This document shows positions 29,134-54,871 of a stretch of 64,000 nucleotides of DNA, one piece after another. Below the pieces are notes generated by a model, which worked only from the letters and a program-made list of their open reading frames with translations, did not search any database and was not told where the DNA came from. Positions within the stretch are counted from its first letter, which is position 1. Each line of letters opens with the position of its first letter. Position numbers and translations under genes: made by a program. This DNA is from an uncultured Gammaproteobacteria bacterium. Its GTDB lineage: Bacteria; Patescibacteriota; Microgenomatia; UBA12405. The stretch is from contig CAZCYZ010000001.1 in NCBI GenBank assembly GCA_964503465.1, forward strand, positions 195,731 to 259,730, in the 5' to 3' direction.

Positions 29134-29209
29134 GGTCGGGGATAGCAGACTCGAACTGCCAGCCTCACGCACCCCATGCGTGCGCGCTAACCAATTGCGC
29201 CAATCCCCG
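29134..29209 (-). tRNA. tRNA-Pro (anticodon GGG)
   Basis: Manual fold of the reverse complement: 7-bp acceptor CGGGGAT/ATCCCCG, D-stem GCGC, anticodon stem CACGC/GCGTG with loop AT-GGG-GT, T-arm GGCAG-TTCGAGT-CTGCT; minus-strand TGaTATAAT extended -10 at about 29224-29233. Confidence 0.8.
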
Positions 29210-41123: not shown

Positions 41124-41395
41124 TTCAGAGAAGTCGATAAGCCGAATTCTGTTTTTGGGTCATCAATCTATTCTCCCCACCTGAAGCTCTCAAAGGCTAG
41201 ATTTTAACGCTTCAATTTGAGATTTCCACCAAGGGGTTGCTCGTTTCATCTCTCCCGACGTAACGTCGGGATACTCGTCTCTGTAGCAGAGCCCACAGGT
41301 CACCCCGTTTCCGCCGCGGCGGCCCTTGTGCCTTTAGTGGTTCGGACTTTCCTCCCGTCAACTGACGGGTCAACCCTTCCACTTCTCCGAAGTTA
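41124..41395 (-). ncRNA. rnpB: RNase P RNA (reduced bacterial form)
   Basis: Minus strand contains the P4 strands GGAAAGTCCGAAC (revcomp of 41340-41352) and ACAGAATTCGGCTTAT (revcomp of 41137-41152); GC-rich, structured; about 270 nt; boundaries approximate. Confidence 0.7.
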
Positions 41396-52073: not shown

Positions 52074-52099
52074 ATCCCGCACACGCGGGATTATTTTTT
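52074..52099 (+). terminator. Terminator-like hairpin 15 nt upstream of the aspS start codon
   Basis: atcccgcacacgcgggat followed by tatttttta. Confidence 0.5.
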
Positions 52100-52113: not shown

Positions 52114-53934
52114 ATGGAAAGGACAGTAATTTCTGACACTATTTCTGGGATTGGTCAGGAAGTTCGGATCAAAGGTTGGGTGGTTTCAGTTCGAAGTCAC
52201 GGTCAAATAGTCTTTGCCGACATTCGTGATCGTAGTGGTCTTCTTCAAATTGTTGGCGACAAATCATTAAACGAACTTCGTCAAGAATATGCTGTCGAGA
52301 TTGTCGGTCTGGTTCGTCCTCGTGATCCCAAATATTTCAACCCCAAACTTGTTACTGGTCAAATTGAGCTTGAAGTCAAAAGTCTGACGGTTCTGGCCAA
52401 ATCACGCGATCTCCCTTTTGATATTCACCAACCAGACCTCAATGTTTCTCTCCCCACTCTTCTTGATCATCGTTCGGCTTCCCTTCGTAATCTTAAAATC
52501 CAGGATGTATTTACTGTCCAATCAACCATTGTTAATGCCTTCAGAAATTTTTTACAAAGCCAAAACTTCAAGGAAATTTTTGTCCCTACCATTGTTGCTG
52601 GCTCTACTGAGGGAGGATCAGAAGTTTTTCCCGTCGATTATTTTGGCTACCAGGCTTTTTTGGCTCAAAGTCCTCAACTCTACAAACAAGTTCTTACTTC
52701 AGTCTTCGAAAGAGTGTTTACTATCGCTCACGCCTATCGGGCCGAACCTAGCGTCACCACTCGTCATTTGACCGAATACGTTGGGCTCGACGTTGAAATG
52801 GGATTTATTGATAGTTGGCTTGATGTCCTTGGGGTTGCCGATGCCACTGTCAAAGCCATTTTTGAATTGGTTGGTCAACTCCATCAGGACATTCTTGACA
52901 AGTATCAAGCCACTCTCCCCAAAACTATTGCCAACACCCCCCGAATCAAACTAAAAGATGCCCTGGAGTTAATTTACAAACGCACTGGCCGTGACGTTCG
53001 TCAGGAATTAGACATGGACCCAGAAGGTGAACGGGAGATTTGCCGCTGGTCCTTGGAGGAATTTGGTAGTGATCTTGTTTTCATTACCCATTTTTACACC
53101 AAAAAACGTGCCTGGTATTCATTCGCTGATCCCGAAAACCCCAACGAAACCCTTACTTTCGATCTCATTGGTCGAGGAGTCGAGTGGATCAGTGGTGGCC
53201 AACGGATTCATGACTATGACGAATTTAGACAAAAACTAATTTCTCGTGATCAGAATCCTGATGATTTTGAATCACCTTATGGCCAAACCTTTAAATACGG
53301 TATGCCGCCTGAAGGTGGTTTCTGCATTGGTTTGGAGCGAGTCACTCAAAATATTCTTGGCTTAGAAAATATTCGCCAAGCTTCATTGTTCCCCCGCGAC
53401 ATGGAACGTGTCGATGGTCGTTTATCGGTTATTGGTAAAAGAAAAACTCTTACTACCAAAACCGATCTTCACCAAAAACTGTTAAGTTTCCTCAACGAAA
53501 AATTAATAAAATACCAACACTTGGAGCATGAGGAAGTCAAAACATCAGAGGCGGCCGCTGCTGCCCGTGGTACCAGGCTCGAACAGGGAGCCAAGGCATT
53601 GATTATGTACGCCGACAGCCAACCAATATTGGTTGTTCTTTCGGCCGCTAGTAAGCTCGATAGTGATGAGTTCAAAAAACAATTTGGTGTCAAAGATCTT
53701 CGTATGGCTACCCCCGATGAAGTCGAGACGGTCTCCACTGTTCCCATCGGCGCTGTCCCTCCTTTTGGTAACCTCATTAACTTGGTTACTTACGTTGACG
53801 AGGGTTTGTTGGTCAACAAAGAAATCGCTTTCAATGCTGGTTCACGTCGGCATTCAGTTATAATCAAATCTAGTGATTTCGTCAATGCCGTCCGTCCGAA
53901 AAAAGGCCGCTTCTGTCAAGCCACCAAAGACTAA
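52114..53934 (+). CDS. aspS: Class IIb aspartyl/asparaginyl-tRNA synthetase (archaeal-type core) fused to a C-terminal YbaK/ProX-like aminoacyl-tRNA deacylase domain
   Basis: OB-fold anticodon-binding N-terminus; LAQSPQLYKQ and motif-2 YRAEPS...; the C-terminal roughly 170 aa align to YbaK (KALIMY/LAVAV, GAVPPFG ~ GGISPLG, IAFNAGSRRHSVII ~ IYVSGGKRGLDIEL). Confidence 0.75.
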   Translation: MERTVISDTISGIGQEVRIKGWVVSVRSHGQIVFADIRDRSGLLQIVGDKSLNELRQEYAVEIVGLVRPRDPKYFNPKLVTGQIELEVKSLTVLAKSRDLPFDIHQPDLNVSLPTLLDHRSASLRNLKIQDVFTVQSTIVNAFRNFLQSQNFKEIFVPTIVAGSTEGGSEVFPVDYFGYQAFLAQSPQLYKQVLTSVFERVFTIAHAYRAEPSVTTRHLTEYVGLDVEMGFIDSWLDVLGVADATVKAIFELVGQLHQDILDKYQATLPKTIANTPRIKLKDALELIYKRTGRDVRQELDMDPEGEREICRWSLEEFGSDLVFITHFYTKKRAWYSFADPENPNETLTFDLIGRGVEWISGGQRIHDYDEFRQKLISRDQNPDDFESPYGQTFKYGMPPEGGFCIGLERVTQNILGLENIRQASLFPRDMERVDGRLSVIGKRKTLTTKTDLHQKLLSFLNEKLIKYQHLEHEEVKTSEAAAAARGTRLEQGAKALIMYADSQPILVVLSAASKLDSDEFKKQFGVKDLRMATPDEVETVSTVPIGAVPPFGNLINLVTYVDEGLLVNKEIAFNAGSRRHSVIIKSSDFVNAVRPKKGRFCQATKD

Positions 53935-54871
53935 GTCTATTCCTCCAAAGGTCATTAATCTTTTCCTTTGTGGCTTAATTTTTTGTCTATGTCTGGTCTG
54001 GTTACCTGCCAGCCCTCTTTGGACCATCTATCCCCATCCTAAAATACCCAGTTCCAATATTCTTTCTTCAGGTCTTTACAATTACCGCCATCCTGCTATC
54101 CCTTCTCTTAAATCAACCACTTCTCCCTCCTTATTAACTTCCAGTTATATTCTTCTTGATGTTGACACCAACACTGTCCTTCTTAGTAAAAATTCTCACC
54201 TCAAAACATTTCCCGCTTCTATCACCAAGTTGGCCACTGCCCTCACCGCCCTCAATCTCTACCCTCTCGACGAGATTATTACTATCACCGATCCCTACAA
54301 AGATGGCAAGGTAATGGATTTAAAGCCTGGGGAAAAAATTACAGTTCGATCTCTGGTTACTGGACTTTTGGTCTACTCCGCCAACGATGCTGCCTACAAT
54401 TTAGCCAAATATCATTCCCGTGGTATTACTGGCTTTGTTGACGAAATGAATCTTTTAATGTCGCGTTACCAGCTTAAGGATACCAATTTTGTCAATTATG
54501 ACGGTATTCACCAACCTAATCATTATTCTACTGTTTACGATCTTTCCCAATTAGCCCGTTTAGCTATTAAAAATCCCATTATCACTGACGTGGTCAAATC
54601 AACCAAACTTACTGTTACTGATGTTGAAGGCAAAATTGCCCACCCCCTCTTGTCAACAAACGAGTTACTGGAGGTTGTCCCCGAAATTGAAGGTCTCAAA
54701 ACCGGTTGGACTCCCGAAGCTGGGGGTTGTTTTGTTGGCCTCATCAACATTAACGGCCATCGTCTTATTAGTGTCGTTACTCAAAGTCAGGATCGTTTTG
54801 TCGATACCAGAACTCTCGTTACCTGGGCCAAAGAAAACATCGTTTGGATGCAATATCCAGTAAAAATCTAA
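53873..54871 (+). CDS. dacC: D-alanyl-D-alanine carboxypeptidase (serine peptidase S11 / PBP5 family)
   Basis: SxxK SITKLAT, SxN SANDAA, KTG LKTGWT; signal-anchor; start uncertain (ATGs at 53873 and 53885 overlap the aspS 3' end). Confidence 0.8.
   Translation: MISSMPSVRKKAASVKPPKTKSIPPKVINLFLCGLIFCLCLVWLPASPLWTIYPHPKIPSSNILSSGLYNYRHPAIPSLKSTTSPSLLTSSYILLDVDTNTVLLSKNSHLKTFPASITKLATALTALNLYPLDEIITITDPYKDGKVMDLKPGEKITVRSLVTGLLVYSANDAAYNLAKYHSRGITGFVDEMNLLMSRYQLKDTNFVNYDGIHQPNHYSTVYDLSQLARLAIKNPIITDVVKSTKLTVTDVEGKIAHPLLSTNELLEVVPEIEGLKTGWTPEAGGCFVGLININGHRLISVVTQSQDRFVDTRTLVTWAKENIVWMQYPVKI

What the first reader, a model, noticed from the sequence alone, without database searches (positions are those of the whole stretch)
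52114..53934. Asp/Asn-tRNA synthetase fused to a YbaK/ProX-type trans-editing deacylase domain
The first roughly 435 residues are a class IIb synthetase. They carry the OB-fold anticodon binder, LAQSPQLYKQ and the YRAEPS motif 2. The gene continues in-frame for another roughly 170 residues. This extension aligns to the free-standing Cys/Ala-tRNA(Pro) deacylase YbaK: KALIMY...ILVVLSAA / LDSDEFKKQFGVKDLRMATPDEVETVSTVPIGAVPPFG / IAFNAGSRRHSVII against the YbaK GYLVGGISPLG and IYVSGGKRGLDIEL regions. YbaK-like domains are known as insertions in ProRS and as stand-alone proteins. A C-terminal fusion to an AspRS-type enzyme is an unusual architecture. It may compensate for loss of other editing factors in a reduced genome.
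Basis: partly seen in the sequence, partly recalled or inferred. Interest (0 to 1): 0.65.

Follow-up and report, generated by a model that had tools for sequence, protein, structure and literature searches.

The report
AspRS fused to YeaK-like editing domain
This gene joins an aspartyl-tRNA synthetase to a tRNA-proofreading (deacylase) domain of the YbaK/YeaK superfamily in one protein, a real and long-conserved architecture in Microgenomates (CPR) bacteria that I could not find described, for a synthetase not known to have an editing domain.

Summary
**Observation confirmed.** Window 52114-53934 (+) is one uninterrupted 606-aa ORF with three parts:
- An archaeal-type AspRS at residues 1-435, probably non-discriminating.
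- A disordered, basic linker of about 20 residues.
- A PF04073 aminoacyl-tRNA editing domain at about residues 450-603.

**Not an artefact.** The same in-frame fusion occurs in 33 of 80 GTDB species-representative loci across Microgenomates, at 47-75% identity. It also occurs in more than 50 protein clusters.

**Subfamily refined.** The domain is not YbaK proper. It belongs to the YeaK (ProXp-ST1)/3OP6 branch of the INS superfamily. The catalytic Lys (K494) and the GXXXP loop are invariant.

**Origin.** The fusion derives from an aspS-deacylase gene pair that still exists unfused in relatives (TAATG overlap). The same domain is also fused to, or adjacent to, bacterial-type AspRS with and without the GAD insertion. 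It was lost cleanly in several Shapirobacteria lineages.

**Function (inferred).** The domain is most likely an active post-transfer editing module tethered to AspRS. Its probable clients are tRNAs leaving AspRS. The substrate is unknown; Ser/Thr is suggested by analogy with YeaK.

**Main rival.** It may be a general trans-editing factor fused neutrally in a compact genome.

**Novelty.** New variant of a known kind. Interest is moderate to high.

The parts
52114..53934 (+). Complete aspS-deacylase fusion gene (606 aa plus stop)
   Evidence: Single ORF. Three Pfam domains. Exact protein P0001 sits on a 470-kb NCBI/Logan contig.
52162..52395 (+). N-terminal OB-fold anticodon-binding domain (aa 17-94)
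   Evidence: PF01336, 6e-11. AF2 pLDDT above 90.
52456..53400 (+). Class IIb catalytic core (aa 115-429), with the TEGG flipping loop (165-168), QSPQ (185-188), motif 2 YRAEPS..R217, motif 3 GLER409, and the C-terminal FPRD
   Evidence: PF00152, 1.1e-64. NF003483 aspartate--tRNA(Asn) ligase scores 437 bits against a cut-off of 353. Closest solved structure is T. thermophilus ND-AspRS2, 1N9W, 5.9e-86. Pocket residues are invariant in 119 relatives.
53398..53460 (+). Flexible Lys/Arg-rich linker (aa 429-449; ...RLSVIGKRKTLTTKT)
   Evidence: pLDDT below 50 over 429-449 and pTM 0.68. No internal ATG. 'LTTKTDLHQKL' aligns with the N-terminus 'MTTDSELFQKL' of the separate gene in L008.
53461..53922 (+). 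INS-superfamily (YeaK/3OP6-like) aminoacyl-tRNA deacylase domain (aa 450-603; Pfam match 472-590)
   Evidence: PF04073, 3.5e-26. E. coli YeaK, 34% identity, E=3e-25. 3OP6, 2e-17. Domain model pLDDT 94.9. All 37 significant Foldseek PDB hits are INS-superfamily structures.
53593..53595 (+). Codon of K494, the predicted catalytic lysine (motif QGAKAL)
   Evidence: Invariant in 58 fused and 111 free-standing homologues. Aligns with the conserved Lys of YeaK, 3OP6, 2CX5 and YbaK.
53749..53769 (+). GXXXP substrate-stabilising loop (G546-A-V-P-P550-F-G552)
   Evidence: G546, P549, P550, F551 and G552 are conserved in 96-100% of copies. The GXXXP loop is a defining INS-superfamily feature (PMC11286415).
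50339..51931 (+). Context: upstream recJ-like gene (DHH/DHHA1), part of the conserved syntenic block
   Evidence: ORF. The same neighbour is found in L001, L003, L007, L008, L010, L011 and L012.
53873..54871 (+). Context: downstream D-Ala-D-Ala carboxypeptidase (Peptidase_S11) gene, overlapping the 3' end of the fusion gene
   Evidence: ORF. The same neighbour follows the deacylase, or follows aspS directly where the deacylase is absent, in all loci examined.

Best explanation
The gene encodes a bifunctional enzyme. The N-terminal 435 residues are a complete archaeal-type AspRS, most likely non-discriminating. A disordered, basic linker of about 20 residues tethers it to a catalytically intact aminoacyl-tRNA deacylase of the YeaK (ProXp-ST1)/3OP6 branch of the INS (YbaK) superfamily.

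The fusion arose in Microgenomates from a translationally coupled aspS-deacylase gene pair through loss of the stop/start overlap.

Proposed mechanism: tethering holds the deacylase at 1:1 stoichiometry beside the site where tRNA leaves AspRS. A domain that has little tRNA specificity of its own would then preferentially inspect tRNAAsp and tRNAAsn charged by AspRS. It would hydrolyse those carrying a small non-cognate amino acid, Ser or Thr by analogy with YeaK. This parallels how free-standing YbaK gains tRNAPro specificity by binding ProRS.

Shown: the architecture, the intact catalytic motifs, the fold, the ancestry from adjacent genes, and long-term retention.
Inferred: hydrolytic activity, the identity of the substrate, and action on AspRS products rather than in trans.
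For: Architecture and motifs: (K494, GXXXP, H472 and FNAG are invariant in 58 fused and 111 free-standing copies).

Fold.

Flexible tether.

YeaK relationship.

Link to AspRS:
- In all seven free-standing or split contexts examined, the deacylase gene lies immediately 3' of aspS.
- It overlaps aspS as TAATG in L008 and L010.
- The same domain is fused to three AspRS architectures. These are the archaeal type (window, 33 GTDB loci), the bacterial type without GAD (L006, L007, P0318), and the bacterial type with GAD (P0311).

Retention: the fused form is retained across Shapiro-, Woese-, Roizman-, Ames- and Gottesmanbacteria and CPR3, down to 47% identity.

Precedent for specificity by association: the YbaK-ProRS-tRNA ternary complex (PMC11286415; PMC7373986).
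Against: - No AspRS is known to need editing.
- The Asp-binding pocket is canonical and identical in fused and unfused relatives, so there is no sign of relaxed specificity.
- The domain has been lost cleanly several times within Shapirobacteria, so it is dispensable there.
- The whole neighbourhood is syntenic, so adjacency alone may reflect shared ancestry rather than function.
- The same domain is occasionally fused to its downstream neighbour Peptidase_S11 (P0266, P0268), which shows that neighbour fusions happen without an obvious functional link.
- AF2 does not fix an inter-domain geometry (pTM 0.68).
- Identity to YeaK is only 34%, and the domain is equally close to the uncharacterised 3OP6, so Ser/Thr specificity cannot be transferred with confidence.
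Confidence: 0.45

Rival explanations
1. General trans-editing factor, fused neutrally. The domain is a broad-specificity deacylase, like YeaK, that clears mischarged tRNAs made by other synthetases. Its fusion to AspRS would be a by-product of overlapping genes in a compact CPR genome. At most it would secure co-expression, with no special relationship to tRNAAsp or tRNAAsn.
For: - ProXp-ST1 and ProXp-ST2 have broad tRNA specificity (PMC11295145).
- Split genes overlap by one nucleotide, so a single indel is enough to fuse them.
- Fusions to the downstream Peptidase_S11 also exist.
- The domain was lost repeatedly.
- The AspRS pocket is unchanged.
- The long, flexible linker is compatible with action in trans.
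Against: - Fusion or adjacency recurs with three different AspRS backbones, always in the same order and orientation.
- The fused state outnumbers the split state 33 to 4 among species representatives and has persisted down to 47% identity. That is unexpected if the fusion brought no benefit.
Confidence: 0.35
2. Surveillance of the indirect pathway. The domain hydrolyses Asp-tRNAAsn made by the non-discriminating AspRS. This would either make the enzyme effectively discriminating in genomes that have AsnRS but lack GatCAB, or recycle tRNAAsn when the amidotransferase is limiting.
For: The AspRS half passes the NCBIfam aspartate--tRNA(Asn) ligase equivalog (437 bits against a cut-off of 353). 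It is closest to the ND-AspRS2 of T. thermophilus. The link to AspRS is specific.
Against: - No INS-family enzyme is known to take an acidic aminoacyl moiety.
- The domain is also linked to bacterial-type AspRS of unknown discrimination status.
- The window holds no asnS or gatCAB to judge by.
- The idea is purely inferential.
Confidence: 0.1
3. Non-catalytic appended domain. The YbaK-fold module serves only as an extra tRNA-binding or protein-interaction domain, as appended domains do in other synthetases.
For: 3OP6 and 1VKI were deposited as 'oligo-nucleotide binding proteins'. The linker is basic.
Against: The catalytic Lys, the GXXXP loop and other active-site motifs are invariant across every fused and free-standing copy. 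That is the pattern expected of an active hydrolase.
Confidence: 0.05
4. Assembly or gene-calling artefact that joins two separate genes.
For: Split versions exist in some genomes.
Against: The fusion is in frame with no stop in the window. The same is true of 33 independent species-representative genomes and more than 50 protein clusters from four data sources, with diverged sequences.
Confidence: 0.01

Closest known systems
YeaK / ProXp-ST1 (E. coli b1787, 'mischarged aminoacyl-tRNA deacylase'), Ser-/Thr-tRNA deacylase of the INS superfamily
   Same: End-to-end homology: 34% identity over 154 aa, E=3e-25. Shared motifs RGTxLxQGAKAL, GA(V/I)PPF and FNAG. Same fold.
   Different: YeaK is a free-standing single-domain protein, while here the domain is the C-terminus of AspRS. 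The residues after the GXXXP loop are GNL, as in 3OP6, rather than SFH. The domain is equally close to the uncharacterised Legionella 3OP6. Substrate specificity is untested.
Legionella pneumophila lpg1207 (PDB 3OP6), uncharacterised INS-superfamily protein
   Same: Best PDB match by both sequence (2e-17) and fold (Foldseek E=2.4e-13, 32% identity).
   Different: Free-standing and of unknown function.
INS editing domain of bacterial ProRS, and the ProXp-ala-ProRS N-terminal fusion of lower eukaryotes (Plasmodium, Trypanosoma)
   Same: An INS-superfamily deacylase sits in the same polypeptide as a class II synthetase. The conserved Lys and GXXXP loop are present.
   Different: The partner is AspRS (class IIb), not ProRS (class IIa). 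The domain is appended at the C-terminus through a flexible linker rather than inserted between motifs 2 and 3 or placed at the N-terminus. It belongs to a different INS subfamily, with TM-scores of only 0.65-0.73 and 14-19% identity to INS and ProXp-ala.
YbaK (Cys-tRNAPro deacylase) acting in a ProRS-YbaK-tRNA ternary complex
   Same: Same superfamily. It serves as the model for a deacylase with little tRNA specificity that gains specificity by associating with a synthetase (PMC11286415).
   Different: The association is non-covalent and with ProRS. Sequence similarity is weak (E=8e-6), and the NCBIfam YbaK equivalogs are not met.
Thermus thermophilus AspRS2 (PDB 1N9W, 3KFU), archaeal-type non-discriminating AspRS of the transamidosome
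   Same: Closest solved relative of residues 1-435 (5.9e-86, aligned 3-433). Same domain order and class II motifs.
   Different: AspRS2 ends at ...FPRDRHRL and has no appended domain.
Trypanosoma brucei MCP3 (ProXp-7) in the multi-synthetase complex
   Same: An INS-superfamily deacylase held physically close to synthetases, including AspRS, which limits promiscuous deacylation (PMC11286415).
   Different: It is eukaryotic, associates non-covalently, belongs to a different subfamily, and acts on Ala-tRNA.

Membership tests
INS (YbaK/ProX) editing-domain superfamily, Pfam PF04073 | Match to PF04073 above the gathering score | tested here: met
   92.1 bits against a cut-off of 25.5; residues 472-590 cover profile positions 1-121 of 123.
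INS (YbaK/ProX) editing-domain superfamily, Pfam PF04073 | Strictly conserved catalytic lysine | tested here: met
   K494 is invariant in 58 fused and 111 free-standing homologues and aligns with the Lys of YbaK, YeaK, 2CX5 and 3OP6. The feature is taken from PMC11286415.
INS (YbaK/ProX) editing-domain superfamily, Pfam PF04073 | GXXXP loop | tested here: met
   G546-A-V-P-P550. G546 and P550 are 100% conserved.
INS (YbaK/ProX) editing-domain superfamily, Pfam PF04073 | YbaK alpha/beta fold | tested here: met
   AF2 domain model with pLDDT 94.9. All 37 Foldseek PDB hits at E<=1e-3 are INS-superfamily structures, with TM-scores of 0.63-0.82.
INS (YbaK/ProX) editing-domain superfamily, Pfam PF04073 | Hydrolysis of a mischarged aminoacyl-tRNA | not testable with these tools
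   Needs a biochemical assay.
YbaK proper (Cys-tRNAPro deacylase; TIGR00011, NF007951) | Score above the NCBIfam equivalog cut-off | tested here: not met
   TIGR00011 scores 52.4 against 153.25. NF007951 scores 20.1 against 243. E. coli YbaK matches at only 24% identity over 84 aa.
ProXp-ST1 / YeaK | Full-length homology to E. coli YeaK, closer than to other INS families | tested here: inconclusive
   34% identity, E=3e-25. Median score among fused proteins is 68 bits to YeaK and 64 bits to 3OP6, against 41 to ProXp-x and 21 to YbaK. No curated ProXp-ST1 model or published sequence-similarity-network boundary was available.
ProXp-ST1 / YeaK | Free-standing single-domain protein | tested here: not met
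   Here it is the C-terminal domain of a 606-aa AspRS. The review states that INS-superfamily members other than INS are single-domain.
ProXp-ST1 / YeaK | Ser-/Thr-tRNA deacylase activity with broad tRNA specificity | not testable with these tools
   Needs a biochemical assay.
Archaeal-type non-discriminating AspRS (aspartate--tRNA(Asn) ligase) | NCBIfam equivalog cut-off | tested here: met
   NF003483 scores 437 bits against 353. The older TIGR00458 scores 316 against 368.4 and is not reached.
Archaeal-type non-discriminating AspRS (aspartate--tRNA(Asn) ligase) | Intact class II motifs and Asp-binding residues | tested here: met
   TEGG, QSPQ, K191, R217, D226, E228, R364 and R409 are invariant across 119 relatives.
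Archaeal-type non-discriminating AspRS (aspartate--tRNA(Asn) ligase) | Charges tRNAAsn; genome has GatCAB and/or lacks AsnRS | not testable with these tools
The closest solved structure is the ND enzyme 1N9W. From memory of Feng et al. 2003, the positions equivalent to T. kodakarensis W26 and K85 are both Val here, so the D-specific residues are absent. That is suggestive only.
Synthetases with a cis post-transfer editing domain (ProRS, ThrRS, AlaRS, PheRS and others) | Editing domain in the same polypeptide as the synthetic site | tested here: met
Synthetases with a cis post-transfer editing domain (ProRS, ThrRS, AlaRS, PheRS and others) | The editing domain clears the enzyme's own misacylation products | not testable with these tools
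   No misacylation by AspRS is known. The inter-domain geometry is not fixed by AF2 (pTM 0.68).

The most novel reading that the evidence does not exclude
Microgenomates AspRS would be the first aspartyl-tRNA synthetase with a dedicated post-transfer editing domain. The domain's client would be a product specific to this enzyme. The most radical possibility is Asp-tRNAAsn itself, giving hydrolytic quality control of the indirect Asn pathway; another is an AspRS misacylation product not yet recognised. Either would add AspRS to the list of editing synthetases and reveal a fidelity problem at Asp/Asn codons that has not been described.
Probability: 0.12. Interest if true: 0.85.

Novelty: new variant of a known kind. 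Interest (0 to 1): 0.6.

Why it matters
Editing activity has been described for 10 of 23 synthetase types (PMC7373986). To my knowledge AspRS is not one of them. INS-superfamily domains are reported only inside ProRS, fused to eukaryotic ProRS, or free-standing (PMC11295145).

A conserved and repeatedly formed AspRS-deacylase partnership in a large bacterial radiation has two possible meanings. One is that AspRS has a fidelity problem under CPR physiology that nobody has looked for. The other is that evolution uses AspRS as a scaffold for a general proofreader. Either way, several things become directly testable with one recombinant protein and its natural split, fused and lost variants:
- What the uncharacterised YeaK/3OP6 branch does.
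- Whether covalent tethering confers tRNA specificity on a promiscuous deacylase.
- How translational fidelity is maintained in minimal genomes.

There is also an annotation issue. These proteins are currently named only 'aspartate--tRNA(Asn) ligase', and in two genomes only the C-terminal piece was called as a gene.

Tried and rejected
- **YbaK identity:** rejected. Similarity is weak and the NCBIfam equivalogs are far below cut-off.
- **ProXp-ala identity (JGI's 'Ala-tRNA(Pro) deacylase' label):** not supported. C. crescentus ProXp-ala (1VJF, 5VXB) was not found by sequence at E<=10. By fold it ranks low, with TM 0.73 and 17% identity.
- **Artefact:** rejected.
- **Relaxed AspRS active site in fused forms:** looked for and not found.
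- **gatCAB, asnS or proS in the window, to infer discrimination status:** none among the ten largest unassigned ORFs.
- **Taxon names for the multi-domain representatives:** none on record.
- **Literature:** searches for YbaK/YeaK + AspRS + fusion, Patescibacteria + aaRS + YbaK, 3OP6, ProXp-7/8/9, and GatCAB + CPR found no description of this fusion. The primary YeaK paper (Liu et al. 2015) is not held.
- **AF2 full-length model:** did not give a confident inter-domain arrangement (pTM 0.68), so cis-editing geometry could not be assessed.
- **NJ tree of the 150-residue domain:** too poorly resolved to count independent fusion events. It shows only that the copies linked to aspS, with either AspRS type, fall in one Patescibacteria clade.
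- **L032:** first scored as 'split', but its junction is continuous. The stop lies elsewhere in that locus.
Full report
**1. The observation**

Window 52114-53934 (+) is a single 606-aa ORF. It starts at ATG and has no stop or frameshift at the proposed junction.

Pfam finds three domains, all above their curated cut-offs:
- tRNA_anti-codon at residues 17-94 (6e-11).
- tRNA-synt_2 at residues 115-429 (1.1e-64).
- tRNA_edit PF04073 at residues 472-590 (3.5e-26; 92.1 bits against a cut-off of 25.5).

**2. Not an artefact**

The exact protein is on record from a 470-kb contig. More than 50 further protein clusters from NCBI, JGI, ENA and Logan assemblies carry the same three domains at 53-75% identity. 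Where named, they are Shapirobacteria, Woesebacteria or Patescibacteria.

A scan of GTDB species representatives returned 80 loci. I classified them by tblastn and reading frame:

| State | Loci |
|---|---|
| Fused in frame, no stop | 33 |
| Split | 4 |
| No deacylase within about 3 kb downstream | 40 |
| Cut by a contig end | 3 |

The fused genomes span Shapiro-, Woese-, Roizman-, Ames- and Gottesmanbacteria, CPR3 and 'Microgenomatus', down to 47% identity. One of the four 'split' loci, L032, has a continuous junction on inspection.

**3. The synthetase half**

- NCBIfam's equivalog for aspartate--tRNA(Asn) ligase (NF003483) is passed, at 437 bits against a cut-off of 353.
- The closest solved structure is T. 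thermophilus AspRS2, the archaeal-type non-discriminating enzyme of the transamidosome (1N9W/3KFU, 5.9e-86). It scores ahead of the discriminating T. kodakarensis enzyme (2e-72).
- The flipping loop, QSPQ, K191, motif-2 R217, D226/E228, R364 and motif-3 R409 are invariant in 55 fused and 64 unfused relatives.

The synthetase is therefore intact, and its amino-acid pocket is no different in fused enzymes. Discrimination status could not be settled from gene content, because the large ORFs of the window include no gatCAB, asnS or proS.

**4. The C-terminal half**

It is not YbaK proper:

| Comparison | Result |
|---|---|
| E. coli YbaK | 24% identity over 84 aa, E=8e-6 |
| NCBIfam YbaK equivalogs | Far below cut-off |
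| E. coli YeaK (ProXp-ST1, 'mischarged aminoacyl-tRNA deacylase') | 34% identity end-to-end, E=3e-25 |
| Legionella 3OP6 (uncharacterised), best PDB sequence match | E=2e-17 |

Across all fused proteins, median phmmer scores are 68 bits to YeaK, 64 to 3OP6, 41 to ProXp-x (2CX5) and 21 to YbaK.

A domain-only AF2 model has pLDDT 94.9. Its significant Foldseek hits in the PDB are all INS-superfamily structures, with 3OP6 first.

The two features that define the superfamily are a strictly conserved Lys and a GXXXP loop (PMC11286415). Both are present, as K494 and G546-P550. They are invariant in 58 fused and 111 free-standing homologues, as are H472 and F573-N-A-G576.

I therefore place the domain in the YeaK/3OP6 branch of the INS superfamily and regard it as catalytically competent. 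Strict membership of ProXp-ST1 is unproven.

**5. Linker**

The full-length AF2 model has mean pLDDT 85.5. It shows two confident modules joined by residues 429-449 at pLDDT below 50. With pTM 0.68, the relative orientation of the modules is not defined.

The linker is Lys/Arg-rich (RLSVIGKRKTLTTKT) and contains no internal start codon.

**6. Origin and evolutionary behaviour**

The neighbourhood is conserved: CCA-adding enzyme, RRM protein, RecJ, aspS, deacylase, Peptidase_S11, a hypothetical gene, then GluRS. Within it the aspS-deacylase slot exists in five states:

| State | Description | Loci |
|---|---|---|
| A | Bacterial-type AspRS with GAD, then a separate 159-aa deacylase gene (TAAAAATG junction) | L001, L002 |
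| B | Bacterial-type AspRS without GAD, fused to the deacylase in continuous 636- and 630-aa ORFs (NCBI had called only the C-terminal piece) | L006, L007 |
| C | Archaeal-type AspRS, then a separate deacylase gene overlapping as TAATG | L008-L010 |
| D | Archaeal-type AspRS fused to the deacylase | The window and many others |
| E | Archaeal-type AspRS alone, followed directly by Peptidase_S11 | L003, L011, L012 |

An exhaustive search of 1.84 billion representatives found further architectures:
- A 744-aa bacterial AspRS with GAD fused to the deacylase (P0311), on a groundwater 0.1-um-filter contig.
- A GAD-less bacterial AspRS fusion (P0318).
- Rare fusions to the downstream Peptidase_S11 (P0266, P0268).
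- An ATP-grasp protein carrying the domain (P0373).
- Proteins with three tandem copies of the domain (P0247, P0285).

In the fused window protein, 'LTTKTDLHQKL' aligns with the N-terminus 'MTTDSELFQKL' of the separate gene in L008. This fits fusion by loss of the stop/start overlap.

On an NJ tree of the AspRS parts, split forms are basal, fused forms make up the backbone, and unfused forms nest inside them in several places. Parsimony counts about 10 state changes, which points to an ancestral fusion followed by repeated loss. The tree is crude, so the count is approximate.

**7. Mechanism**

Shown:
- A complete AspRS.
- A complete deacylase with conserved catalytic motifs.
- A flexible tether between them.
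- An aspS-deacylase partnership that persists across three AspRS backbones and has been held fused for a long time.

Inferred: the domain hydrolyses mischarged aminoacyl-tRNA, and its position beside AspRS biases it toward tRNAAsp and tRNAAsn. This follows the precedent of YbaK, which has no tRNA discrimination of its own and acquires it in a ProRS-YbaK-tRNA complex. The aminoacyl specificity is unknown. Ser/Thr is suggested by YeaK, but only at 34% identity.

The main rival is that the domain is a general trans-editing factor and the fusion is a neutral consequence of gene overlap in a compact genome. In its favour are the repeated losses, the Peptidase_S11 fusions and the unchanged AspRS pocket.

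A more radical possibility is hydrolysis of Asp-tRNAAsn. The evidence does not exclude it, but nothing supports it beyond the specific link to AspRS.

**8. Comparison with what is known, and novelty**

A 2024 review states that, apart from INS, members of the INS superfamily are single-domain proteins. The only fusions it lists are ProXp-ala-ProRS in lower eukaryotes and a plant-specific C-terminal domain (PMC11295145). A 2020 review counts editing activity in 10 of 23 synthetases (PMC7373986). That AspRS is not among them is my own knowledge.

Five literature searches found no description of an AspRS-INS fusion.

Databases already hold these proteins and their Pfam domains. The sequences are therefore not new, but the architecture has apparently not been recognised or studied. 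I rate it a new variant of a known kind, namely a known editing-domain superfamily attached to a new synthetase partner.

Interest is 0.6. An aaRS specialist would find it clearly surprising, and it is directly testable. The mechanism and substrate, however, remain inferred.

Noticed in passing
window 41126-41389 (-): The only Rfam gathering-threshold hit in the window is the archaeal RNase P RNA model. It is RF00373, 121.5 bits, E=1.8e-33, covering the full model 1-288 in only 264 nt. Yet the genome is a Microgenomates (CPR) bacterium. This suggests a reduced or atypical RNase P RNA.
   Followed up: no
L001 4241-5998; L006 2525-4435; L007 2609-4501; window 52114-53418; L003 6001-7380: The same syntenic slot between recJ and the Peptidase_S11 gene holds a bacterial-type AspRS with GAD, a bacterial-type AspRS without GAD, or an archaeal-type AspRS in different Microgenomates. 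This looks like an in-situ displacement of one AspRS lineage by another.
   Followed up: partly
L006 2525-4435, L007 2609-4501, P0318: These bacterial-type AspRS enzymes pass NF001750 in two stretches and lack the GAD insertion domain that is normally universal in bacterial AspRS.
   Followed up: partly
P0266, P0268, P0373, P0247, P0285: Other architectures of the same YeaK-like domain: an N-terminal fusion to D-Ala-D-Ala carboxypeptidase (Peptidase_S11, the downstream neighbour); a 1012-aa protein with ATP-grasp domains plus the deacylase; and proteins made of three tandem deacylase domains.
   Followed up: partly
L006 4001-4435 and L007 4001-4501: In two NCBI assemblies (GCA_042568845.1, GCA_042570465.1), only the C-terminal 144- or 166-aa 'aminoacyl-tRNA deacylase' piece is on record as a gene, although the ORF is continuous for 636 or 630 aa and includes a full AspRS. 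The fusion appears to be under-annotated.
   Followed up: yes
window 52076-52099: A terminator-like hairpin (CCCGC-acac-GCGGG followed by a T-run) lies between recJ and the aspS fusion gene, just upstream of an AT-rich stretch and the ATG. This suggests the fusion gene is transcribed separately from recJ.
   Followed up: no
window 53873-53934: The longest ORF of the downstream Peptidase_S11 gene (GTG at 53873) overlaps the 3' end of the fusion gene by 62 nt. Similar overlaps are seen in L003, L010 and L001, which is typical of the tight gene packing that makes neighbour fusions easy.
   Followed up: no
window 29134-29209 (-): A tRNA-Pro(GGG) gene is the only tRNA in the 64-kb window.
   Followed up: no
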